This document shows, in pieces, positions 2,413 through 22,239 of a stretch of 23,582 nt of DNA. The stretch comes from a virus (taxonomy: Duplodnaviria > Heunggongvirae > Uroviricota > Caudoviricetes): IMG/VR virus record IMGVR_UViG_2925908680_000008. One strand, 5' to 3'. Position 1 is the first letter of the stretch, and each line of letters opens with the position of its first letter. The notes under the pieces are model-generated. The model made no database searches. It saw only the letters and a program-made list of their open reading frames with translations, and was not told where the DNA came from. The position numbers were made by a program, and so were the translations under genes.

Positions 2413-2700
2413 TCACTGACTGCAATTTTTCGATCCAGGGTATTTCCTGAATGCCTTACCATTGGGCTGATGTAATCCCATCCCGGCATGTGCCCGGCTG
2501 ATGGTTTCGCGCATTTCCCCGAAATTATCCTGCCTTGCTGGTGGGCGTGCTGCCTTGCGGATACATTCCGCGCGACGTTTTGCCGCCTGTTCCCGTGCCT
2601 TGTCATCATTCGCCAGCATGATGACCTCAGCCCACCGCGCCGCCGCTCTCCGGTACAGACCACGCGCTTCCAGTGCTTCCGCTTTGCTGTCGTGAATCAT
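2413..2700 (-). CDS. PerC-family transcriptional regulator (PerC homolog, Pch-like)
   Basis: 95 aa; motif KAEALEARGLYRRAAARWAEV matches my recollection of the PerC family signature; start ATG overlaps upstream stop as ATGA. Confidence 0.65.
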   Translation of the reverse strand: MIHDSKAEALEARGLYRRAAARWAEVIMLANDDKAREQAAKRRAECIRKAARPPARQDNFGEMRETISRAHAGMGLHQPNGKAFRKYPGSKNCSQ

Positions 2701-3227
2701 GCGCCTGTTTTCTCCTTTGCTGCCCGGCGCTGACGTTTGCGCTTCTCATTCAGCGCCACCAGCCGCGTTTCTGCGTCCTGTTGTTCCTGTGGTGTCACCT
2801 CGCCGCACGGCTGGCCTTTCAGGTCGTAGCGTACCCCACCAGCCATTAAGGCGCGGTAATAGCGCGGACACTGCGCATAAGATGCCAGCGTCGCACGCAA
2901 TGCCCCTGGACCGAATGCCAGCCCCCTGACGGCGAGATCCTGCATCAGGTCGTCGAATATCCCCACCTTAAGCGGCTTCGGTGCTTCCCGGCTGAATAAT
3001 TCAGGCCACAACTCAGTGAGGCGGTTAACGCGCCTGCGGTTTTTGCGCTGGCGTTTGGTCATATGCCGCCACGGTGTCGCCCCTGTGGGCTTCTGCTGCG
3101 CTTTCTGGTTACCGGGCATCACTTTATGCGCCGATGTGGTTTTATCCTGCTCCTGCGCCGCCTGCGTCGTTTTCTGCGGCGTGCCGTAAATGCCTTTCGG
3201 TTTTCTGTTAATGGTCAGCTTAGTCAT
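2697..3227 (-). CDS. ProQ/FinO-domain RNA-binding protein with basic N-terminal extension
   Basis: PLKVGIFDDL ... LRATLASYAQCPRYYRALMAGGVRYDLKGQPCGEVTPQE closely parallels the ProQ N-terminal FinO-like domain; start taken at ATG 3227 (GGAG RBS), alternative ATG at 3239. Confidence 0.8.
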   Translation of the reverse strand: MTKLTINRKPKGIYGTPQKTTQAAQEQDKTTSAHKVMPGNQKAQQKPTGATPWRHMTKRQRKNRRRVNRLTELWPELFSREAPKPLKVGIFDDLMQDLAVRGLAFGPGALRATLASYAQCPRYYRALMAGGVRYDLKGQPCGEVTPQEQQDAETRLVALNEKRKRQRRAAKEKTGA

Positions 3228-3239
3228 GCTTTGCTCCAT

Positions 3240-3611
3240 CGTTACAACTGTCTACCAACTGTCCACCGATATAATTTATTGATTTATTTGATATTATTTA
3301 CACATAACTAAAAAATAACCTATCAATTGTCTACCAACTGTCTACCGCATTAATACATTGATAATTAATGATTTTTTCAAAATGGTAGACAGAGTAGACA
3401 GTTAAAAGAGAAATTTTAAAAATGAACCCTTAACTATCTGTTTTTTTATATACCCCCCGTGGTTTAGGAATATAGAAACAACTGTCCACTCTCTACCACA
3501 TTTAAAAATATCTATACAATTCAATGCATTAATTGGTAGATGGTTGGTAGAGGATTAAGTATTACTGTCTACCAACCGTCTACCTTTACGTTTCAGCTCA
3601 TAAATTTCGTA
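3240..3611. repeat. iteron-type replication origin with AT-rich unwinding region
   Basis: At least 10 copies of CAACTGTCTACC-like motif in both orientations (e.g. 3245-3267, 3323-3346, 3384-3403, 3479-3497, 3533-3553, 3563-3584) interspersed with AT-rich tracts, directly 3' of the replication gene. Confidence 0.7.
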
Positions 3612-5417
3612 TTATGTTCTGTCGTTAATCCCTGTTGCTGCTGGCAACCAGCTATCAGCATCATCATCTAACAGAACATTTGTTATCACTCGCCCTTTAT
3701 CCTGGCCTTTAGTGCATTTAGCCCGCTTATACTCCTTTCCGTATTCCGCCATAGCACCAGGCATATCAGTGCCAAAGCGTTTCAGTGATACTGGTTTTCC
3801 CAGACCATGCGCTGACATATAGGCTAAATAAGCATGATACAGATATCGCCTCGGGCTAAATGGCACTATTCCCGCATTGCCCACCATCATTCCTTCACAT
3901 TTAACCAACGACATCAGATAGCCGCAAAAGTCCACCAGTGAATCACCCTCACGTTTTATCATCAGAGCCTCTTCTGATTTCTGCTGCTCATATAACAGAC
4001 GTCTGGCTTCATCCTGGTCAGAAAAACGAGTAAGCAGGTGGCGAATAACTACCGCCAGTTCGCCTTCTATTTTTTCCACCAGCATGGGATCGCGTTCGTT
4101 CTCCGGTACGACCTCAGAGAAATTAAATATCACCCTACGACGCGAGATCCCCCCGCTTCGGTCACTGAATGACATGGCGTTATTGTTTACTGCCAGCACT
4201 ACCGCCGGAATACGAGTGGAGTATGGGGCTTTATGTTTCGGGTCGATCGCCACCTTGTCACCACCAGTAATTGCCTTAATTCCTGCACCATCTCCAGCGT
4301 AGCGGGCCATATCCGGCATGATAATCAGCGAAAAGCCAACGACTAACGCGCGTTCCCTTGCGTCTTCCAGCGCCTTCATGCTTGCCGATACTGTATTGAC
4401 CTTACCCGCCAGCATGGTACAAATCTCCGCCATCACACTTTTACCGCTTCCGCCCGGCCCCGTTACCTCAAGGAATAACTGCCAGTCGTACCGGTTCGCC
4501 AGTACCATGAATAATGCCGCCAGTACGCGATCTGCTTTACGATCGTTATTTGCCACCGAACGACGCAGCCACTTCCAGAAATTCGGCGCATGTGTTGCCA
4601 GCGTTTCCCCCTCTGCTGGTGGGCTGAACGGTAATTCACTGGCATTTAACAACCAGTCATTTTTGTTATGCTCCCGAAAATTTCCTGTCCGGGTATCAAA
4701 TACCCCGTTACTGAATCCAATAAGATTCCTGTCTGCCCCGCCCATAACAGGCAGGCTCAATTTCATTGTGTCTACGGCAAATTTAATGGCGTTTTGCGAA
4801 TAACTGATTCCAGCATCAATAAAAATCTTCGCCATAGATCGCTGGAGTTCCTTATCAGATACAGGCTCCCAGACAATTCCGTTGTAATGGTGAACTACAT
4901 CAGAATCGTCATTTATAGCCAGTGCCCTTCCATAATATTCAAGCAATACTTCCCCTCTCTGGCTGGCTCCCATCTGATTTAGTGCTGGCCTGGGTAGGTC
5001 ACTATTTTTTGTGACTAATTTCATCGCTGAAACTTCCCCGCGCTCTGCCTGTTCGCGGATCCGTTGCAGGTAATCGCGCCAGTTCTCCGGCTCCCGGTCG
5101 GTGATGCCTTTGTATAATTTCGCCTCCTGTACGCCAGCCAGTGCCAGTTTTTCAGCGATAGTATTGATCTGGATTGGCTCTATCTCCCCCGCGAGATAGA
5201 CACGCGCAAAGCGGCGTTCATCGTCGACAATGCGGATATTCGCCAGGTCTGCCAGTTGCTTTGGCCCCAGATAAACAGGTGGCACGTTATCGCCGTGTTT
5301 TCGTCCTTCGCTTTCAATCCAGTGTTGAGCATGGGAGTAAGCGTCCGTCCCGGCAAAAATGATTACCTCAGTGAATTTATCCTTCGGCTGATATTTCAAA
5401 TTCGGTGCGTTTTTCAC
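3612..5417 (-). CDS. replication initiation primase/helicase-like protein (P4-family primase C-terminal-type P-loop NTPase)
   Basis: 601 aa; Walker A GPGGSGKS; GTG start at 5417 with GGGAGGT RBS, overlapping upstream stop (GTGA); adjacent iteron origin. Confidence 0.75.
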   Translation of the reverse strand: MKNAPNLKYQPKDKFTEVIIFAGTDAYSHAQHWIESEGRKHGDNVPPVYLGPKQLADLANIRIVDDERRFARVYLAGEIEPIQINTIAEKLALAGVQEAKLYKGITDREPENWRDYLQRIREQAERGEVSAMKLVTKNSDLPRPALNQMGASQRGEVLLEYYGRALAINDDSDVVHHYNGIVWEPVSDKELQRSMAKIFIDAGISYSQNAIKFAVDTMKLSLPVMGGADRNLIGFSNGVFDTRTGNFREHNKNDWLLNASELPFSPPAEGETLATHAPNFWKWLRRSVANNDRKADRVLAALFMVLANRYDWQLFLEVTGPGGSGKSVMAEICTMLAGKVNTVSASMKALEDARERALVVGFSLIIMPDMARYAGDGAGIKAITGGDKVAIDPKHKAPYSTRIPAVVLAVNNNAMSFSDRSGGISRRRVIFNFSEVVPENERDPMLVEKIEGELAVVIRHLLTRFSDQDEARRLLYEQQKSEEALMIKREGDSLVDFCGYLMSLVKCEGMMVGNAGIVPFSPRRYLYHAYLAYMSAHGLGKPVSLKRFGTDMPGAMAEYGKEYKRAKCTKGQDKGRVITNVLLDDDADSWLPAATGINDRT

Positions 5418-5909: not shown

Positions 5910-6267
5910 AATTCACCCCCTGAATAACCTGATAACCGCAACTGGTCAGCAATTCGATAAATTCCGGCAGTGTTCCGAAACAGCAATCATCTCGCAGCCG
6001 TTCTCGGGATACTTCAACGCCGTTTTCGTAGTGACTCACCATGCGTCCGGTAAAATGCAAATCATCATCGTGATGGCACGTTGACGGTTTAATCAGTCGC
6101 GCACGCTCTGCCAGTTCCAGCAATGCTTCAACACTTCCGGCAATTGCACCATCCGGCAGGTGGTAATTACGCACTATGCGCCCGTTCTCCACATGGACCA
6201 GTAGCTGCCCGGTAAATATCTCGTCAAACTGAATGCTGTTAAGGTCAGAAATTGACAGGTTATGCAT
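5902..6267 (-). CDS. hypothetical protein (121 aa)
   Basis: ATG at 6267 overlaps upstream stop (ATGCATAA). Confidence 0.5.
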   Translation of the reverse strand: MHNLSISDLNSIQFDEIFTGQLLVHVENGRIVRNYHLPDGAIAGSVEALLELAERARLIKPSTCHHDDDLHFTGRMVSHYENGVEVSRERLRDDCCFGTLPEFIELLTSCGYQVIQGVNYG

Positions 6268-6625
6268 GGTGCACCTCCTGGCGAATACGGGCAGCGAATA
6301 CCATCACGCAGCCATCAGGAGATTGCTGGCGTGCTTCCTGTTCGCTGGTGGCCTCGATGTGAATTACACGCGGTTGTGCCGTACTCAGGGCGATAAAACG
6401 CCAGATAAAATTGTTCTCGCATTTCTGAATAAACAGCGTGTTTTCTTCGCGCCCTTTCCATGTTGCCGAGATATAGCCCATGTCATTGAGCATCTCGCAG
6501 GCATCAACCAGCGTATCGGCGGCTACGTGTACAGTGTTTTTACCGTCAGCTATGCAATCACGGTGCACCGCCAGGAAGGTGTATATAAATTTAGGGTGAG
6601 TTTGGGTATGCTGTGTTCCAGCCAT
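6260..6625 (-). CDS. hypothetical protein (121 aa), first gene of replication operon
   Basis: ATG at 6625 (MAGTQHT...) with GAGGT RBS; E. coli-like codon usage, unlike the antisense read-through upstream. Confidence 0.5.
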   Translation of the reverse strand: MAGTQHTQTHPKFIYTFLAVHRDCIADGKNTVHVAADTLVDACEMLNDMGYISATWKGREENTLFIQKCENNFIWRFIALSTAQPRVIHIEATSEQEARQQSPDGCVMVFAARIRQEVHHA

Positions 6626-6812
6626 AATCGTTACCTCGTTTAACGGTTTGGTTAGACGCCCCGCTACTGCCGCAAACAGTTCGGGGCGTTGTCGTTTACA
6701 TCCTCTTACTGAGGTGTGATTTAAATTAAATTCAACTGAATCACAGGTCAAGTATTTTTTGTGATTCTTTTTTGTGTATACTGAATCACATCTTTTGTTT
6801 AGGAGAATGCAC
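6626..6812. promoter_or_regulatory. divergent promoter/operator region between replication operon and small regulator gene
   Basis: CTGAATCACA direct repeats at 6737-6746 and 6781-6790 with inverted TGTGATTC between; TATACT -10-like hexamer at 6777-6782; AGGAGA RBS at 6801-6806; 8-bp stem hairpin around 6650-6690. Confidence 0.5.
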
Positions 6813-7118
6813 ATGGCAAAAAACACTATCAACGACAAATCAAAACAGATTTCAATTCGTATCCCACATGATGCTTTTGATGGCATGGAATCCGTAAAAC
6901 TGGACGGCGAAAGCAACGCCGGATTCATAGTAACCGCCATGCGCGGTGAGATCGCCCGCCGCCAGGCAGAAGGAAGAGGAGAAAACCCCCTGGTTTCTTC
7001 GCTCGATGCACTGGCGCAGGTGGAAAAAATCGGTGTCAAAGCTGCCGAGGAGATCGGGCAACTCGTCACCGTCGCGCGTGAAGAACTCCAGCGACGCAAG
7101 GTCAAAGAGCAGGAATAG
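6813..7118 (+). CDS. putative ribbon-helix-helix DNA-binding regulator (candidate island repressor)
   Basis: 101 aa from ATG 6813 with AGGAGA RBS; ISIRIPHDAFDGMESVKL...NAGFIVTAMRGEIARR has a strand-helix-helix pattern; family assignment is by eye only. Confidence 0.45.
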   Translation: MAKNTINDKSKQISIRIPHDAFDGMESVKLDGESNAGFIVTAMRGEIARRQAEGRGENPLVSSLDALAQVEKIGVKAAEEIGQLVTVAREELQRRKVKEQE

Positions 7119-7175
7119 CCACTATCAGCGCCATAGTTTGAGGAACGCAGGCGCATTGCTTTACAGGACAGCACC

Positions 7176-7355
7176 ATGAGCGACACAGAATCAACCAAAA
7201 CACCATCACCAACTCGTAAGAGACGACGCAAAAATATAGCGCATGAACATGAATCAGAAAGATTCGCACCTTGTTCGTTTGCTCTTGAGAAATTCCTTAA
7301 AGAGCACAGGAAAAAGCTCTCGTTGCAAACCTTGGAACGAACCAAATCTGACTGA
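7176..7355 (+). CDS. small basic hypothetical protein (59 aa)
   Basis: ATG 7176, stop TGA 7353-7355; below ORF-track cutoff; RKRRRK basic patch. Confidence 0.3.
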   Translation: MSDTESTKTPSPTRKRRRKNIAHEHESERFAPCSFALEKFLKEHRKKLSLQTLERTKSD

Positions 7356-7756
7356 TCACATTGCCCACCAGCCGCAAATGTGGCATTGTTGGTGATGCGT
7401 TCAAGTTTGATTTGCCGTAATACCCACTGGCGACCCTCTGCGGTCGCCTTTGTTTTATCCAGAACGAAATCAGACATCAGATTGATCAGCACCTGGCGAC
7501 CTGACAAAATCGTATCGGTCGCGCCACCAGCAAAATTTTTTGCTTTCCGGACGATGTGGCCAACGGTATTTTGCAGCAAAATATTCTGCATTTCTGGCGT
7601 GCTGTGGCGACGGTGATCAGCGCCTTCACATTGAACGAACTTGTCGCTAAAATTCACCCACATAGCAAACATCGCGGTGCTGTAGGTAATTCGTTCACAA
7701 AGGCGCTCCGGCAACGGGGCGCTTTCTCTTTTTGTAACGGTCAGAGCGTTACACAT
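7355..7756 (-). CDS. hypothetical protein coupled to ant; 3' end undefined (no in-frame stop)
   Basis: ATG 7756 overlaps ant stop (ATGTGTAA) with GGAGGAAAA RBS; good codon usage for ~134 codons, then frame continues stop-free to 6260. Confidence 0.4.
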
Positions 7757-8549
7757 GGCTGTTTTCCTCCATGCGACGGGCTAACCAACGCTGCGAAAGA
7801 CGAATTAATTCAGCTTTCCGCTGGTGGTAGTCCTGGCCTAACTCAATCAGCGTGATATTGCTCCGCTCAAGGTAAGAAAGGTGCTCAAGCTGCAACGTGC
7901 TCATGTGGTCGCGTGGTTCACCTGTGATGCCGTTCGCCTGCGCCCACTGTTTTGCAGTCATGCCACCCAGCACGATACGCGCCAGCATATTGGCTTCCGT
8001 GGTGTAGTGGTGCTGTAGAGTGTTTTTACCCAGTTCAGTCCGGTACGCCTCCAGCGCGGCGCACATCGGCTTAAAGTAGCTGGCAACGGTGATACGGGCT
8101 TTCAGTTCCCTGCGTAACGCTGCGGAACGCACTGGCGCTACCTTGTGTAGCTCCTCCTCGCATTTGATGAAGTACTGACGAACGGCACGGCCCTGTTCGG
8201 TGCGTTCGACCATCGCCAGTTCTTTTGCCATGTTCACGGTGATGATGTACTCAAGAGCGGTTTGCTGGCGAGATTTTGCGCTCACCGGATCGGGTCGGCT
8301 CAAATATTCAACAACTTCATAATCCACGCCTTCCGTGAAGCCGTATTCTTCAATGCGCCCCTTGATCCACGAACGGAAAACGCGCCCTACACCTAACGCC
8401 TTATGCAACGCTCTGGCGCTAACAATATTGGTTTCACGCCCGCCAATAACGCCGGAAATAACCGGGATAATTTCGCCAAAATTTTGCAGATTCTGGTTTT
8501 CAGGCCGAACGAAGCCCTGCCCCTGTACGGGCGTTTTTCGCAGTTTCAT
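7749..8549 (-). CDS. phage antirepressor-like protein (AntA/Rha-like domain)
   Basis: 266 aa; TNIVSARALHKALGVGRVFRSWIKGRIEEYGFTEGVDYEV resembles the AntA/Rha antirepressor domain; AGGAG RBS. Confidence 0.6.
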   Translation of the reverse strand: MKLRKTPVQGQGFVRPENQNLQNFGEIIPVISGVIGGRETNIVSARALHKALGVGRVFRSWIKGRIEEYGFTEGVDYEVVEYLSRPDPVSAKSRQQTALEYIITVNMAKELAMVERTEQGRAVRQYFIKCEEELHKVAPVRSAALRRELKARITVASYFKPMCAALEAYRTELGKNTLQHHYTTEANMLARIVLGGMTAKQWAQANGITGEPRDHMSTLQLEHLSYLERSNITLIELGQDYHQRKAELIRLSQRWLARRMEENSHV

Positions 8550-8627: not shown

Positions 8628-8825
8628 TCAGGTAGCTGTTCCGCGTGATTCAGCAATACGCTGATTAATCCACTCGTCAATTTCACTCTCAACGAAAGCA
8701 ATAGCTCGCGAGCCAATTTTAACTGATGCAGGAAATTTACCTTGCCCCATAAGGCGATAAATCCATGCCTTGCTATATCCAGTTCTACGCTGAACTTCTG
8801 TTAAACGAATAAGCGTATTTGACAT
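8628..8825 (-). CDS. alpA: AlpA-family (Phage_AlpA/Vis-like) transcriptional regulator/excisionase-type HTH protein
   Basis: 65 aa; IRLTEVQRRTGYSKAWIYRLMGQGKFP...ESEIDEWINQR aligns with the AlpA pattern. Confidence 0.85.
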   Translation of the reverse strand: MSNTLIRLTEVQRRTGYSKAWIYRLMGQGKFPASVKIGSRAIAFVESEIDEWINQRIAESRGTAT

Positions 8826-8893: not shown

Positions 8894-9070
8894 TACCCTC
8901 AGGCCTAATGGTTACCGGAAGGAAATTAACCCTAAGGGTGATGGTAATCGGAAGGAAATTAACCCTAAGGGTGATGGTAATCGGGAGGAAATCTACCCTA
9001 AGGGTGATGGTAAAATTGACGGGGAAGATAAAAAAATACCCTCAGGGTAACAGTAAATCACCCTCAGGGT
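8894..9070. promoter_or_regulatory. operator-like repeat array upstream of alpA: three tandem 33-bp repeats plus two extra palindromic sites
   Basis: 33-bp units at 8908-8940, 8941-8973, 8974-9006; motif ACCCT-N-AGGGT at 8929-8939, 8962-8972, 8995-9005, 9038-9048, 9060-9070. Confidence 0.55.
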
Positions 9071-9085
9071 ATGCGGTATGGTGCG

Positions 9086-9883
9086 TTAATCCGGCTTTGC
9101 GTTCTTTTGGCTGTTGTCTCGGTTAATAGGGCAGGCAGTCCTCTCTATGAGCGTTGCAAGTGCATTACTTGCCCCCCACTGCTTAAGCTCCCTGGTTATC
9201 GCTTCTTGATTTCCCCTGGTGGCAAAATCATTTTCTGGATCGTAATTGGCCCACTCTCTGTTTCTAATCTCAATAGCCTTAGCTAATGGGTCTTTATCCC
9301 AGTATTTATATAAGTGTATCGGGCGCTCTTGCTCTAACTGCTCTATCCTTGCCCTTAACTCTGCGTTTTCTTTTTCCAGCATTGCGATTTGGGATAATAA
9401 ATCATCCTCTGTACGCAACTCTTTCTTTTCAATATCGCGTCCTTGTGCCTCGTCATTTTCAGAAGAGTTAGCGCCTTCCAGCTTCGTTAACGCGTCAAGG
9501 ACATCGGGAAAAATTGCGAAAATTTCACCCCTTATAAATCCAATGTTCTCAAATTCGGGATCTTCCCAATAACCGGACACCAGAAAACCATTTTCATCCC
9601 TCTCACCAGGTAAACAACCACGTTTCCGAACCGCATTCAGATTTCTATAAAGAACATCATAATCAAATTCATCCCGATACGGGTTACAAAAAGATTCCAA
9701 CAGCTTAAATTCATTTACTGTGTACAGGCGGATATGTTCTCCGCTTATTCTCCTGAGTATCCAAGTTATGACATCTGAAACATCATAATCATCACCAGCG
9801 ACCTTAAGCACGACCTCAAGAAATTCACGTAAAGAAATAAAATCTTTTTTGTATTCGTTTAATTCGGCATGAATATCAATCAT
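9086..9883 (-). CDS. uncharacterised cargo protein (265 aa) with central coiled-coil segment
   Basis: ATG 9883 with GAGGTG RBS (ORF track start at 9889 is GTG); appears AT-richer than neighbours by eye; LEKENAELRARIEQLEQER heptad-like stretch; no recognised catalytic motif. Confidence 0.55.
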   Translation of the reverse strand: MIDIHAELNEYKKDFISLREFLEVVLKVAGDDYDVSDVITWILRRISGEHIRLYTVNEFKLLESFCNPYRDEFDYDVLYRNLNAVRKRGCLPGERDENGFLVSGYWEDPEFENIGFIRGEIFAIFPDVLDALTKLEGANSSENDEAQGRDIEKKELRTEDDLLSQIAMLEKENAELRARIEQLEQERPIHLYKYWDKDPLAKAIEIRNREWANYDPENDFATRGNQEAITRELKQWGASNALATLIERTACPINRDNSQKNAKPD

Positions 9884-10011: not shown

Positions 10012-11226
10012 TCATCCACATTTTCCGAACTTGCCATGCACCACGTTACCGCCATGCTCGAGCGAATCCATATAGTCGGCATACCACTGGAGCATCTCCC
10101 GGCGACCATCCAGATATTGCGCATGGTTGTATGTGCCACGAATTGAGTTTTTATCGACGTGTGCGAGCTGCGTCTCTATCCACGCGGTGTTATAGCCCTG
10201 CTCATGCAAAATGGTGCTCATGGTGTGCCGGAATCCATGACCAGTAACGCGCCCGGCATAGCCGATACGACGAATGAGCACATTCATCGCCATTTCACTC
10301 ATTGGCTTACTGTGGTGAATACGACCGGGGAAAATAAACTGATACTGGCCTGTCATGTTTTTTAACTGCTCCAGTATTTTTATTGCCTGTTCTGGTAATG
10401 GCACGCAATGCGGACGGCGCATCTTCATTCGTTCTTTAGGCACTTCCCACAAACGATTATCAAAATCGATCTCCTGCCATTCTGCCTGCCGTAATTCCCC
10501 GGGTCTGACACCTGTCAGAATTAATAGCCGCATTGCCAGTTTGACGATCTGGCTTCCGGTGTACGTATTAAAAACGCGGAAAAATTCCGGCAGTTCGTCG
10601 GCCTTCAAATAGGCGTAATGCTCTTTTTTATGTGGAGCAAATGCGCTCACCAGATCAGGGGCTGGATTATATTCGGCGCGTCCGGTGATGATTGCGTACC
10701 GGAACACCTCGCCGCATCGCTGGCGAACCTTACGCAATTTTTCAGTCGCACCACGGTCATTAAGACGGGAAAGAACCGCCAGCAATTCCATCGGCTTAAT
10801 TTCTGCGATCGGCCTACCGCCAATGTACGGAAAAACATCTTTTTCAAACGTCTCGATCATTTCCTCGGCGTATGACGATGACCACCTGTCGATCCGCTTT
10901 TCGTACCATTCGCGAGCAATACCCTCAAAAGTATTGCCAAATTTGCTCGCCTGTTCTCGCTTTTGGGCTTTTCTGGCCTCACTTGGATTTATACCACCAG
11001 CAAGAAGCCTTTTAGCCTCATCCCTTGCCGCCCTGGCATCAGACAGGGACACATCAGGGTACACACCCAACGACAACATTTTGGGCTTTCCTGCAAACCT
11101 GTAGCGCAGTCGCCACCCTTTCGAACCGTTCGGCTCAATGAGCAACGAAAGCCCGTTACCGTCATTGAGTGTATAAGCCTTTTCTTTCGGCTTCGCGCGC
11201 CTGATGGCAAGGTCTGAAAGCAGCAT
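10012..11226 (-). CDS. int: P4-type tyrosine integrase (site-specific recombinase)
   Basis: 404 aa from ATG 11226 with GGAG RBS; N-terminal LSDLAIRRAKPKEKAYTLNDGNGLSLLI... typical of P4-family integrases; C-terminal HGFRHT and Y-containing catalytic region. Confidence 0.9.
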   Translation of the reverse strand: MLLSDLAIRRAKPKEKAYTLNDGNGLSLLIEPNGSKGWRLRYRFAGKPKMLSLGVYPDVSLSDARAARDEAKRLLAGGINPSEARKAQKREQASKFGNTFEGIAREWYEKRIDRWSSSYAEEMIETFEKDVFPYIGGRPIAEIKPMELLAVLSRLNDRGATEKLRKVRQRCGEVFRYAIITGRAEYNPAPDLVSAFAPHKKEHYAYLKADELPEFFRVFNTYTGSQIVKLAMRLLILTGVRPGELRQAEWQEIDFDNRLWEVPKERMKMRRPHCVPLPEQAIKILEQLKNMTGQYQFIFPGRIHHSKPMSEMAMNVLIRRIGYAGRVTGHGFRHTMSTILHEQGYNTAWIETQLAHVDKNSIRGTYNHAQYLDGRREMLQWYADYMDSLEHGGNVVHGKFGKCG

Positions 11227-11873
11227 GTGTATAGCTCCAAAAAATAAATTTTGTCCTATACGCATTACTATACACTTCTGTGTGTAGATTCTGGTAGTTG
11301 TGAGTAGACGTTAATGAACTATGAAAATGGCTGGAAGACTTGATATTCGTGGGTTTGATGGACTTTAGTAGACGTTGAGAAATGTTTGTTTGGAGCGGGC
11401 GAAGGGAACAATACAACAAGCCACAAGACCAGTAGTAAAGGCACATTCGCGAGTTCTAAAATAGATTCTATACACATTTCTATACACATTTATCACTCGC
11501 TTGGGAATTACACATCCCCTGTTATCCGTGATCAAGCTGGTGGATGATCACGGATAACCGATATGGGAATCCCCATATCGGCATCGCGTAGTTAATCGTA
11601 GTGGCTACCGTAGTAGTTGAGTAGCAGGATGTAACCTGCCAGGAAGGAAATGATCGGTCGTAACTCGCCACCACCAGCCACAGAACGCAAATTTGCGTCG
11701 TCGGATATATCAACAACTTAGCACAAAAATAAGTCAGGCAGATACAAACCTCAAATTTGAGGTTTGCTTGTTTATCAACGGGTAAGGATAATCATCTCCC
11801 CTTTAAAGTCCCTTCGAAGGGTTACCCGTAGGCTTAATGTAAGGCTTGGCTGTAGCCTTACCGAACGCTCCGC
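11227..11873. other. int-upstream / att-proximal region with direct repeats and perfect palindromes (att core not identified)
   Basis: CTATAC(A/G)C repeats at 11266-11290 and 11466-11492; AGTAGACGTT twice; 14-bp-arm inverted repeat 11521-11558; 10-bp-arm palindrome 11558-11581; 22-bp perfect palindrome 11745-11766. Confidence 0.4.
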
Positions 11874-12053
11874 TCACCGTCGCGGCCTGTCCGGTTTCTT
11901 CCACTGATACGGCCTCACATCATCCTGCTGGTGGCGTTCCTGTTGCAGCACAACGGAAACAGGCGCTGAACACCTGTTAATTTTGCTTGCAGGTTGTTTG
12001 ATTCCGGCAATGCTGCGGATCATCTCCAGCATATCGGCTTCGGTGATGGTCAT
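11874..12053 (-). CDS. small hypothetical protein (59 aa) in junction
   Basis: Hand-translated: ATG 12053 with AAGGTG RBS, stop TGA 11874-11876; MTITEADMLEMIRSIAGIKQ...; not in ORF track (under 60 aa). Confidence 0.35.
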   Translation of the reverse strand: MTITEADMLEMIRSIAGIKQPASKINRCSAPVSVVLQQERHQQDDVRPYQWKKPDRPRR

Positions 12054-12079
12054 GATTTACACCTTAGGAAATCTTAGGG

Positions 12080-12345
12080 GCTGGTTGACACTTTCCGGCT
12101 TAAGACCTTAACAAATCTTAACATCGCAGGTTGACACACTTGACACTTTTTCGCGAAAAACCTTATCAAACCTTAGCATTTCTAAGCATGGCAACTTGAC
12201 ACTTTTCGCGATTTTTTCGGCTTTTTGACGTGGTAAATCTGGCGCAAAGCCAGTAACGGCGGGGTTTACAGCGAGGTTGACACTTTTTCGCGTTCAGAGT
12301 GTAAAGTGTCAACCCGGCAGACGGCCTGACTTGACACTTTTCGCG
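12080..12345. repeat. array of TTGACAC(TTTTCGCG) repeats between small junction ORF and TerS-like gene 3' end
   Basis: TTGACAC at 12085, 12131, 12140, 12196, 12277, 12331 plus inverted GTGTCAA at 12306; four copies share TTGACACTTTT(T)CGCG. Confidence 0.6.
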
Positions 12346-12358
12346 AATTTTACGGTCA

Positions 12359-20983: not shown

Positions 20984-21181
20984 TCAGGTAGCTGTTCCGC
21001 GTGATTCAGCAATACGCTGATTAATCCACTCGTCAATTTCACTCTCAACGAAAGCAATAGCTCGCGAGCCAATTTTAACTGATGCAGGAAATTTACCTTG
21101 CCCCATAAGGCGATAAATCCATGCCTTGCTATATCCAGTTCTACGCTGAACTTCTGTTAAACGAATAAGCGTATTTGACAT
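20984..21181 (-). CDS. alpA: AlpA-family regulator, copy 2
   Basis: Duplicate of 8628-8825. Confidence 0.85.
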   Translation of the reverse strand: MSNTLIRLTEVQRRTGYSKAWIYRLMGQGKFPASVKIGSRAIAFVESEIDEWINQRIAESRGTAT

Positions 21182-21249: not shown

Positions 21250-21426
21250 TACCCTCAGGCCTAATGGTTACCGGAAGGAAATTAACCCTAAGGGTGATGG
21301 TAATCGGAAGGAAATTAACCCTAAGGGTGATGGTAATCGGGAGGAAATCTACCCTAAGGGTGATGGTAAAATTGACGGGGAAGATAAAAAAATACCCTCA
21401 GGGTAACAGTAAATCACCCTCAGGGT
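21250..21426. promoter_or_regulatory. palindromic 33-bp repeat array upstream of alpA, copy 2
   Basis: Duplicate of 8894-9070. Confidence 0.55.
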
Positions 21427-21441
21427 ATGCGGTATGGTGCG

Positions 21442-22239
21442 TTAATCCGGCTTTGCGTTCTTTTGGCTGTTGTCTCGGTTAATAGGGCAGGCAGTCCTCT
21501 CTATGAGCGTTGCAAGTGCATTACTTGCCCCCCACTGCTTAAGCTCCCTGGTTATCGCTTCTTGATTTCCCCTGGTGGCAAAATCATTTTCTGGATCGTA
21601 ATTGGCCCACTCTCTGTTTCTAATCTCAATAGCCTTAGCTAATGGGTCTTTATCCCAGTATTTATATAAGTGTATCGGGCGCTCTTGCTCTAACTGCTCT
21701 ATCCTTGCCCTTAACTCTGCGTTTTCTTTTTCCAGCATTGCGATTTGGGATAATAAATCATCCTCTGTACGCAACTCTTTCTTTTCAATATCGCGTCCTT
21801 GTGCCTCGTCATTTTCAGAAGAGTTAGCGCCTTCCAGCTTCGTTAACGCGTCAAGGACATCGGGAAAAATTGCGAAAATTTCACCCCTTATAAATCCAAT
21901 GTTCTCAAATTCGGGATCTTCCCAATAACCGGACACCAGAAAACCATTTTCATCCCTCTCACCAGGTAAACAACCACGTTTCCGAACCGCATTCAGATTT
22001 CTATAAAGAACATCATAATCAAATTCATCCCGATACGGGTTACAAAAAGATTCCAACAGCTTAAATTCATTTACTGTGTACAGGCGGATATGTTCTCCGC
22101 TTATTCTCCTGAGTATCCAAGTTATGACATCTGAAACATCATAATCATCACCAGCGACCTTAAGCACGACCTCAAGAAATTCACGTAAAGAAATAAAATC
22201 TTTTTTGTATTCGTTTAATTCGGCATGAATATCAATCAT
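21442..22239 (-). CDS. uncharacterised cargo protein (265 aa), copy 2
   Basis: Duplicate of 9086-9883. Confidence 0.55.
   Translation of the reverse strand: MIDIHAELNEYKKDFISLREFLEVVLKVAGDDYDVSDVITWILRRISGEHIRLYTVNEFKLLESFCNPYRDEFDYDVLYRNLNAVRKRGCLPGERDENGFLVSGYWEDPEFENIGFIRGEIFAIFPDVLDALTKLEGANSSENDEAQGRDIEKKELRTEDDLLSQIAMLEKENAELRARIEQLEQERPIHLYKYWDKDPLAKAIEIRNREWANYDPENDFATRGNQEAITRELKQWGASNALATLIERTACPINRDNSQKNAKPD

What the first reader, a model, noticed from the sequence alone, without database searches (positions are those of the whole stretch)
9086..9883. Uncharacterised cargo gene between int and alpA, a position where satellites carry accessory/defence genes
A 265-aa ORF with its own RBS sits alone between the integrase 3' end and the alpA operator repeats. 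It looks AT-richer than flanking genes (by eye, not computed), has a central coiled-coil-like segment (EKENAELRARIEQLEQER) between two globular regions, and matches no family I recognise. In P4-like and PICI-type satellites, variable slots near int often hold anti-phage or host-benefit cargo, so this is a candidate new interference or defence effector.
Basis: partly seen in the sequence, partly recalled or inferred. Interest (0 to 1): 0.6.

Follow-up and report, generated by a model that had tools for sequence, protein, structure and literature searches.

The report
Modular regulator gene guarding satellite's alpA switch
The unannotated 265-aa gene is real and belongs to no known family, but it is not loose cargo: across more than 70 related phage satellites it travels with its own array of DNA palindromes placed in front of alpA, the satellite's master switch, so it most likely controls when the satellite wakes up.

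Summary
A 265-aa ORF lies on the minus strand (9883..9086) and again, identical, at 22239..21442, because the window holds 1.9 tandem copies of a 12.36-kb E. coli PICI satellite. It is AT-richer than its neighbours, has a central coiled coil, and matches nothing in Pfam, PHROGs, PADLOC, NCBIfam, PDB or BFVD.

The "variable-slot defence cargo" reading is only partly supported.
- The protein has a hypervariable acidic N-domain, a coiled coil and a conserved 70-aa four-helix C-domain (117 clusters in 1.8 billion proteins).
- In 74 of 75 related loci the gene sits directly upstream of an alpA-like gene, even when int lies at the far end of the island.
- It is absent from 50,697 phage and 72,556 plasmid records.
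- The gene-to-alpA spacer always carries 3-7 helically phased 11-bp palindromes (ACCCTNAGGGT). They are about 800-fold enriched there. The proximal site sits 79-80 nt before the alpA ATG in the enterobacterial loci that have one.
- Two otherwise homologous islands with identical AlpA differ only in this gene plus the palindrome array.

Best reading (about 0.5): a dimeric, sequence-specific DNA-binding regulator that gates the alpA promoter, with a swappable sensor head. Direct anti-phage activity is not excluded. This is a new protein family in a known kind of circuit.

The parts
9086..9883 (-). Gene 'X', 265 aa (WP_000565286.1), copy 1
   Evidence: ORF; RefSeq CDS in E. coli cq9; homologues
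21442..22239 (-). Gene X, copy 2 (identical) in the second tandem copy of the satellite
9479..9883 (-). Variable acidic N-domain, residues 1-135 (pI 4.6). It starts with a beta-helix-helix-beta-beta unit that resembles a winged helix or excisionase.
9326..9478 (-). Disordered acidic linker (residues 136-158) and coiled coil (159-186)
   Evidence: pLDDT below 50 for 140-157 and a single helix 159-186; coiled-coil-only matches
9110..9325 (-). Conserved C-domain, residues 187-258: a four-helix bundle with motifs DPLxxAIxxRNxxW and AxAIExVACPIxR. Proposed reader of the palindromes.
   Evidence: A2/A4 alignments; 117 clusters, always C-terminal; AF2 pLDDT 90.9; no PDB fold relative
8895..9070 (.). 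Array of six 11-bp palindromes. ACCCTNAGGGT at 8929, 8962, 8995, 9038 and 9060, plus a degenerate proximal site at 8895-8905. Three of them lie inside the 33-bp tandem repeats. Spacings are 34, 33, 33, 43 and 22 bp.
   Evidence: 10 exact hits in the window against 0.01 expected, all in this spacer; repeats; phasing and conserved layout
21251..21426 (.). The same palindrome array in copy 2
9030..9049 (-). Terminator-like element after X: one palindrome forms a short hairpin followed by T7
   Evidence: sequence
8628..8825 (-). alpA (65 aa, PF05930), the satellite's master activator and presumed target of regulation. Copy 2 is at 20984-21181.
   Evidence: role of AlpA from PMC6092414
10012..11265 (-). 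Tyrosine integrase upstream of X. No promoter consensus was found between int and X on this strand.

Best explanation
X is a modular regulator of the satellite's induction switch.

Shown by computation: X has a variable N-domain, a coiled coil and a conserved C-domain. The gene is always immediately upstream of alpA. The spacer always holds an array of helically phased CCCTNAGGG-type palindromes, and in most enterobacterial loci the array ends about 80 nt before the alpA start codon. The array is present only when an X-type C-domain is present, and it is exchanged together with X.

Inferred: X dimerises through the coiled coil, and the two C-domains read the two half-sites of each palindrome. 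Cooperative binding along one face of the DNA forms a nucleoprotein complex over and upstream of the weak alpA promoter. This complex sets whether AlpA, which activates its own promoter and the satellite cycle, can fire. It may also block read-through from int-X into alpA. The hypervariable N-domain is the input: it senses a helper-phage or host protein.

Whether X represses, in the manner of Stl, or activates, in the manner of a class II activator, is not resolved.
For: 1. Synteny. X is followed by an alpA-like gene in 74 of 75 loci; the one exception is a contig end. This holds when int is distal and on the opposite strand (L061-L076), and in distant members with unrelated AlpA.
2. Motif enrichment. 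The motif family is found 119 times in 9.9 kb of X-alpA spacers, against 9 times in 600 kb of the surrounding loci. In the window there are 10 exact hits against 0.01 expected.
3. Phasing. Site spacings cluster at 21-24, 31-34, 42-44 and 52-56 bp. The 32-23-42-34 layout is conserved, and the proximal site is fixed 79-80 nt from the ATG.
4. The motif follows the C-domain, not AlpA or the N-domain. CCCTNAGGG or related ATAGT half-sites are present with AlpA only 17-26% identical and with unrelated N-domains (L003, L005, L083, L085).
5. Cassette swap. L034 and L078 are homologous in int, alpA (identical protein) and the downstream genes (80-88% DNA identity). They differ in exactly X plus the spacer, up to 35 nt before alpA. 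L078 has a distant C-domain (E 8e-7) and a different significant array, GGTGGGTA x5.
6. Non-homologous occupants of the slot have no significant array.
7. X, the spacer and alpA form one low-GC block.
8. X is absent from phage and plasmid records, unlike typical hotspot defence genes.
9. The replication iterons are elsewhere (3244-3600).
10. Published gap: how helpers switch on alpA, and whether Gram-negative PICIs have a repressor, is unknown (PMC6092414).
Against: - The protein is very acidic (pI 4.7, net charge -19) and the C-domain is only neutral.
- Many PICIs, including the model EcCICFT073 where alpA is ORF2, lack X yet are helper-inducible. X therefore cannot be the universal switch.
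- The palindromes lie downstream of X and could belong to some other factor carried in, or recognising, the cassette.
- Binding, dimerisation and any effect on alpA are all untested.
Confidence: 0.5

Rival explanations
1. X is an anti-phage defence or helper-interference effector carried in the 5' accessory slot. The variable N-domain would recognise a phage protein, and the conserved C-domain would be an effector or adaptor.
For: PICIs are reported to carry immune systems at their 5' or 3' ends (PMC11364771). The slot shows turnover. The N-domain is hypervariable and mosaic. In split relatives the N-half ends in a perfect SSB C-terminal tip, which looks like bait for SSB-binding proteins. One relative has a weak hit to effector-associated domain EAD9.
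Against: There is no PADLOC hit and no enzymatic, pore or nuclease-like domain; the C-domain is a 70-aa helical bundle. X is never found outside the alpA-upstream position, nor in phages or plasmids. This view does not explain the co-swapped phased palindrome array.
Confidence: 0.2
2. X is unrelated cargo of unknown role. The palindromes would be bound by something else (AlpA, a host factor or another satellite protein), or would act only as RNA or terminator elements.
For: AlpA activates its own promoter in EcCICFT073, so AlpA sites must exist near it. One palindrome followed by T7 scores as a terminator-like site. X is acidic.
Against: Identical AlpA proteins sit behind entirely different arrays (L034 against L078). 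All other genes of those two islands are homologous. The motif persists with AlpA of under 26% identity. Stems of 5 bp with a 1-nt loop cannot fold alone, and most copies have no T-run. A host factor would not explain array types that differ with X type under an identical AlpA.
Confidence: 0.15
3. X with its array is a partition or replication module for the excised circular satellite, working like a centromere or iteron system.
For: Arrays of phased short repeats bound by small dimeric proteins resemble plasmid parC/ParR systems (own knowledge). The window shows the element as a concatemer.
Against: There is no ParA/ParM-type partner in the element. The iterons and AT-rich origin lie downstream of pri at 3244-3600, as described for Gram-negative PICIs (PMC6092414). 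The array has a fixed distance to the alpA start codon.
Confidence: 0.05

Closest known systems
Stl master repressors of SaPIs (Gram-positive PICIs)
   Same: Both are satellite-encoded regulators placed next to int at the head of the island. Both control the genes that start the satellite cycle. Both are highly divergent between islands, and in Stl each variant senses a different helper-phage protein (PMC6092414; PMC11846896 abstract).
   Different: There is no sequence or fold similarity. Stl has an N-terminal HTH and is transcribed divergently from its target. X is co-oriented with alpA, its conserved part is C-terminal, and its operator array lies upstream of an activator gene. Repression and anti-repression are not shown for X.
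Immunity cassettes of lambdoid phages (repressor plus operators exchanged as a unit)
   Same: The regulator gene and its cognate repeated sites are swapped together between otherwise homologous elements (L034 against L078). This yields specificity types.
   Different: X has no HTH_3/CI-like domain and no autocleavage domain. The sites are 5-N-5 palindromes spread over about 170 bp, not overlapping divergent promoters.
AlpR-AlpA and PrtR-PrtN circuits of Pseudomonas aeruginosa (own knowledge, not tested here)
   Same: An AlpA-family activator or antiterminator is kept off by a dedicated upstream-encoded regulator that responds to a signal.
   Different: AlpR and PrtR are LexA/CI-like repressors responding to DNA damage. 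X is unrelated, and alpA induction in PICIs is SOS-independent.
Immune genes in PICI 5' and 3' accessory regions, and Tai systems
   Same: The position is at the int-proximal end of a PICI. Neither is recognised by PADLOC or DefenseFinder.
   Different: Those genes also occur in phages, P4-like elements and defence islands. X is confined to the alpA-upstream position and comes with an operator-like array.
bZIP transcription factors (the RefSeq label on some homologues)
   Same: Both have a leucine-zipper-like coiled coil.
   Different: The segment before the zipper is acidic and disordered, not basic. The conserved domain follows the zipper. The label comes from coiled-coil noise.

Membership tests
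Gram-negative PICI (the element that carries X) | int, alpA and a primase-type replication gene, co-oriented, with an origin made of iterons downstream of pri | tested here: met
   Pfam and PHROG hits; iterons ACAACTGTCTAC x7 around an AT-rich stretch at 3244-3600
Gram-negative PICI (the element that carries X) | About 10-15 kb in size, with its own chromosomal att site and no phage tail or lysis genes | tested here: met
   12,356-bp unit; integrated at tRNA-Gly beside actS in E. coli cq9; no such genes annotated
Gram-negative PICI (the element that carries X) | Induced and packaged by a helper phage | not testable with these tools
   Only indirect: the window shows a head-to-tail concatemer of the excised form
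Known anti-phage defence systems | Match to a PADLOC model or a recognisable effector domain | tested here: not met
   No PADLOC hit at E<=0.1; no Pfam or NCBIfam domain
Known anti-phage defence systems | Protects against phage when expressed | not testable with these tools
   Needs a phage challenge experiment
Stl/Rpr-type satellite master repressor | HTH DNA-binding domain homologous to CI or Stl | tested here: not met
   No HTH family hit; no fold match
Stl/Rpr-type satellite master repressor | Cognate operator sites between the regulator gene and the genes it controls | tested here: inconclusive
   An array specific to X lies between X and alpA. Binding is not shown.
Stl/Rpr-type satellite master repressor | Relieved by binding of a helper-phage protein | not testable with these tools
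   Only the hypervariable N-domain points that way
bZIP transcription factor | Basic DNA-contact region immediately N-terminal to the zipper | tested here: not met
   Residues 136-158 have pI 4.5 and are predicted disordered
AlpA/excisionase (HTH_17, PF05930) | Profile match to the MerR-like winged helix | tested here: not met
   No hit for X. The N-terminal beta-helix-helix-beta-beta unit only resembles it.
Proteins bearing an SSB C-terminal tip | C-terminal D-D-D-I/V-P-F | tested here: not met
   Absent from the window's fused X. Present only on the separate N-half of split relatives.

The most novel reading that the evidence does not exclude
X-family proteins are the missing helper-sensing master regulators of a large subset of Gram-negative PICIs. 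They would represent a new DNA-binding fold that reads CCCTNAGGG palindromes, joined through a zipper to interchangeable sensor heads. Some of those heads display a perfect mimic of the SSB C-terminal tip as bait for phage or host SSB-binding proteins. Exchange of heads and of regulator-plus-operator cassettes would set which helper phage can wake which satellite.
Probability: 0.3. Interest if true: 0.8.

Novelty: new variant of a known kind. Interest (0 to 1): 0.6.

Why it matters
The founding paper on Gram-negative PICIs left open how helper phages turn on alpA and whether a repressor exists at all (PMC6092414). This gene is a conserved, satellite-specific protein with its own operator-like array placed on the alpA promoter. 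That makes the question directly testable with EMSA, a reporter and a deletion. If confirmed, it would add a new DNA-binding domain family and explain helper specificity through domain swapping. It would also caution against calling every gene between int and alpA a defence candidate. The gene is present in about 2.7% of complete E. coli genomes, including O104:H4 C227-11.

Tried and rejected
- Domain libraries (Pfam, PHROGs, PADLOC, NCBIfam) on X and on 95 family members gave only coiled-coil noise and one weak EAD9 hit.
- A PDB profile search found only coiled coils.
- Foldseek against BFVD found nothing. The afdb50 library was unavailable.
- A scan of genome contigs with the C-domain profile found no confirmed locus.
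- tblastn against phages and plasmids, and blastn of the spacer against phages, found no match.
- Literature searches for the accession and for a PICI regulator upstream of alpA found nothing. The Cell 2022 PICI immunity paper is not held.
- EcCICFT073 c1499 and c1500 turned out to be capsid-like genes, unrelated to X.
- I tested whether every alpA-upstream gene has a repeat array. Only X-type C-domains do. Occupants of types L079, L080, DUF6387 and L002 do not, so I dropped that generalisation.
- The consensus promoter scan found no sigma-70 promoter for X or alpA on the minus strand. The extended -10 I describe was read by eye.

Full report
**What the window is.** The 23,582 bases hold about 1.9 head-to-tail copies (period 12,356-12,358 bp) of one element. 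On the minus strand each copy reads as follows:
- int (11265..10012)
- the target ORF (9883..9086)
- repeats
- alpA (8825..8628)
- an AntA-like gene
- a YlcI/YnfO-like gene, on the plus strand
- a D5-type primase (5417..3612)
- iterons around an AT-rich stretch
- a ProQ/FinO-like gene
- four further ORFs of 149-217 aa (two of them annotated in RefSeq relatives as DUF2213 and NUDIX-like)
- an HTH / small-terminase-like gene

This is the layout of a Gram-negative phage-inducible chromosomal island (PICI), as described in PMC6092414. The same element is integrated once at tRNA-Gly beside actS in E. coli cq9, where the target is WP_000565286.1, 'hypothetical protein'.

**Checking the observation.**
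- The ORF, its GAGG ribosome-binding site and its isolated position are as described.
- Its GC is 0.415, against 0.498 for int and 0.536 for antA. The spacer (0.427) and alpA (0.424) are equally low, so the compositional unit is gene + spacer + alpA.
- AlphaFold2 with 28 homologues (mean pLDDT 75) gives a folded N-domain (residues 1-135, pLDDT 85-90), a disordered acidic linker (140-157), one long helix (159-186) and a small helical C-domain.
- Nothing matches in Pfam, PHROGs, PADLOC or NCBIfam beyond coiled-coil noise, nor in PDB by sequence.
- The gene is genuine. It is >=99% identical in 141 complete E. coli genomes (148 of 5,426 have a match, O104:H4 C227-11 among them). Homologues occur in Salmonella, Citrobacter and Yersinia.

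**Architecture of the family.** Aligning the homologues shows a conserved C-terminal module of about 70 aa, with motifs PIxL, DPLxxAIxxRNxxWxxYD and AxAIExVACPIxR. It follows the coiled coil, and everything upstream diverges. Identity to the window protein stays at 46-75% in the C-domain while the N-domain falls to 11-30%. Mosaics are evident: for example, P0015 is 96% identical in the C-domain and 62% in the N-domain.

A profile of the C-domain searched against 1.84 billion representatives finds only 117 clusters. The domain is always at the C-terminus of proteins of 150-500 aa with very diverse N-termini. None of 95 members has a Pfam domain.

**Genomic context.**
- Exact-protein look-ups of distant homologues all show the gene directly followed by a small AlpA-like gene, usually then by an AntA or Bro-N gene. 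These cover Salmonella, Yersinia, metagenomes and two high-GC members.
- A scan of IMG/VR returned 66 loci. A scripted ORF and HMM analysis shows X followed by an AlpA-like gene, 27-260 bp downstream on the same strand, in 73 of 75 loci.
- One of the two exceptions has an AlpA-like ORF that the threshold missed. The other is a contig end. That gives 74 of 75.
- The link holds in a group where int is at the far end of the island on the opposite strand (L061-L076). X is therefore tied to alpA, not to int.
- X has no tblastn match in 50,697 phage or 72,556 plasmid records.

**The palindrome array.**
- The 'alpA operator repeats' contain an 11-bp palindrome, ACCCTNAGGGT. It occurs 10 times in the window against 0.01 expected, always in the X-alpA spacer, plus a degenerate proximal copy at 8895-8905.
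- Across 52 non-redundant loci the motif family occurs 119 times in 9.9 kb of X-alpA spacer, against 9 times in 600 kb of the rest.
- Adjacent sites are 21-24, 31-34, 42-44 or 52-56 bp apart, which are multiples of about 10.8 bp. The 32-23-42-34 layout recurs in divergent spacers. Where a proximal degenerate site is detected, as in most enterobacterial loci, it lies 79-80 nt before the alpA ATG.
- By eye, a TG-extended -10 would put that proximal site near -44. This last point is my reading of the sequence, not a tool result. The consensus scan finds no strong promoter.

**Whose sites are they?** Five results point to X.
1. The motif, or variants built from AGGGT and ATAGT half-sites, accompanies the C-domain even when AlpA is only 17-26% identical and the N-domain is unrelated (L003, L005, L059-76). 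It also accompanies the most distant members found (L083, L085).
2. L034 and E. coli ET650 (L078) encode identical 65-aa AlpA proteins. L078 has no ACCCTNAGGGT. Its upstream protein has only a distant C-domain (E 8e-7) and a different significant array, GGTGGGTA x5 with 0 of 100 shuffles reaching that count.
3. Pairwise blastn shows that these two islands are homologous in int, alpA and the downstream genes (80-88% identity). The single non-homologous block is X plus the spacer, ending 35 nt before the alpA ATG.
4. Unrelated occupants of the slot have no significant array (L002, L079, L080 and the DUF6387 loci). In L002 the N-terminal half of AlpA was swapped as well.
5. The replication iterons are a different sequence at a different place (3244-3600).

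**Mechanism.** The best-supported model is that X dimerises through the zipper. Its C-domains then read the half-sites, and arrays of dimers on one DNA face gate the alpA promoter, perhaps also blocking read-through from int-X. The variable N-domain supplies the input.

Points against the model:
- X is very acidic (pI 4.7) and its C-domain is neutral.
- No known DNA-binding fold is recognised.
- Many PICIs, EcCICFT073 included, lack X.

I put this model at about 0.5. I cannot say whether X represses or activates.

**Rivals.**
- A defence or interference effector, about 0.2. The position, the turnover and the variable head fit. The strict alpA linkage, the absence from other mobile elements, the lack of an effector domain and the co-swapped array do not.
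- Cargo unrelated to the array, about 0.15. The L034/L078 comparison argues against it.
- A partition or replication module, about 0.05.

**Comparison with known systems.** Functionally the closest are SaPI Stl repressors and lambdoid immunity cassettes. X is a member of neither, because the defining HTH domains are absent. The RefSeq label 'bZIP transcription factor' on some homologues is a coiled-coil artefact: the pre-zipper segment is acidic and disordered.

**Side finding.** In many relatives X is split into two genes. The C-half (about 152 aa) keeps the zipper and the C-domain. The N-half (100-150 aa, homologous to the X N-domain) ends in ...EPPMDFDDDIPF, identical to the last 12 residues of E. 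coli SSB, or in DDDDVPF or PGDIPF. This suggests that the N-module deals with SSB-interacting proteins. It is absent from the window's fused protein.

**Verdict.** The most likely identity is a new family of regulator-plus-operator cassette controlling alpA. That is a new variant of a known kind of circuit, of moderate to high interest, and directly testable.

Noticed in passing
window 1-23582 (junctions 11266-12358; copy offset 12356-12358): The window is about 1.9 tandem copies of the whole satellite, joined through its att region, with no tRNA gene present. The copies differ by homopolymer-length indels, for example A6 against A5 near 898/13256. That indel changes the DUF2213-like ORF from 217 to 180 aa. 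It looks like a long-read concatemer of the excised or replicating element, or an over-assembled circle.
   Followed up: partly
window 8908-9013, and loci L012-L030: The number of 33-bp repeat units, each carrying one palindrome, varies among islands with identical X and alpA. Spacers of 260, 227, 205 and 194 bp correspond to 3, 2, 2 (with one upstream palindrome lost) and 1 units.
   Followed up: partly
L034 7651-7971, L037 1279-1728, L050 7920-8372, L009 7647-7985, L046 1529-1834 and others: Where X is split, the upstream N-half protein ends in a copy of the SSB C-terminal tip. EPPMDFDDDIPF equals the last 12 aa of E. coli SSB (PDB 1eqq); variants are DDDDVPF and PGDIPF. More than 12 distinct proteins show this, always 13-28 bp before, or overlapping, the C-half gene.
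   Followed up: partly
L002 12018-13225 (E. coli HNSQ2209): A sibling island at the same tRNA-Gly site replaces X with an unrelated 302-aa protein. It loses the palindromes (98-bp AT-rich spacer) and has a different N-terminal half of AlpA, while the C-terminal half is identical. The recombination joint lies inside alpA.
   Followed up: yes
L079 3340-3930, L080 3339-4094 (E. coli NDM2, FDAARGOS_448): Other alpA-upstream proteins share a third conserved C-terminal module (GKDTALKhIAGMAIAL...). Their N-termini resemble those of some X relatives (P0036-like, P0047-like). This suggests shuffling of heads among different tails. No significant repeat array was found there.
   Followed up: partly
window 3244-3600: Seven copies of the iteron ACAACTGTCTAC, in 11-bp pairs and in both orientations, flank a stretch of GC 0.32 just downstream of the primase gene. 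This is the likely replication origin.
   Followed up: partly
window 7749-8549 (minus strand): The C-terminal part of the AntA-like protein matches the PADLOC candidate defence protein PDC-S22 (E 7e-10).
   Followed up: no
window 2697-3239: The ProQ/FinO-family gene has a strikingly high GC (0.59, GC3 0.67) compared with the rest of the island (0.49).
   Followed up: no
window 6260-7756 (minus strand): A 498-aa ORF in the mechanical list overlaps the region that RefSeq annotates as several small genes (Icd-like, DUF4222 and others) plus a plus-strand YlcI/YnfO gene. It is probably not a real gene.
   Followed up: no
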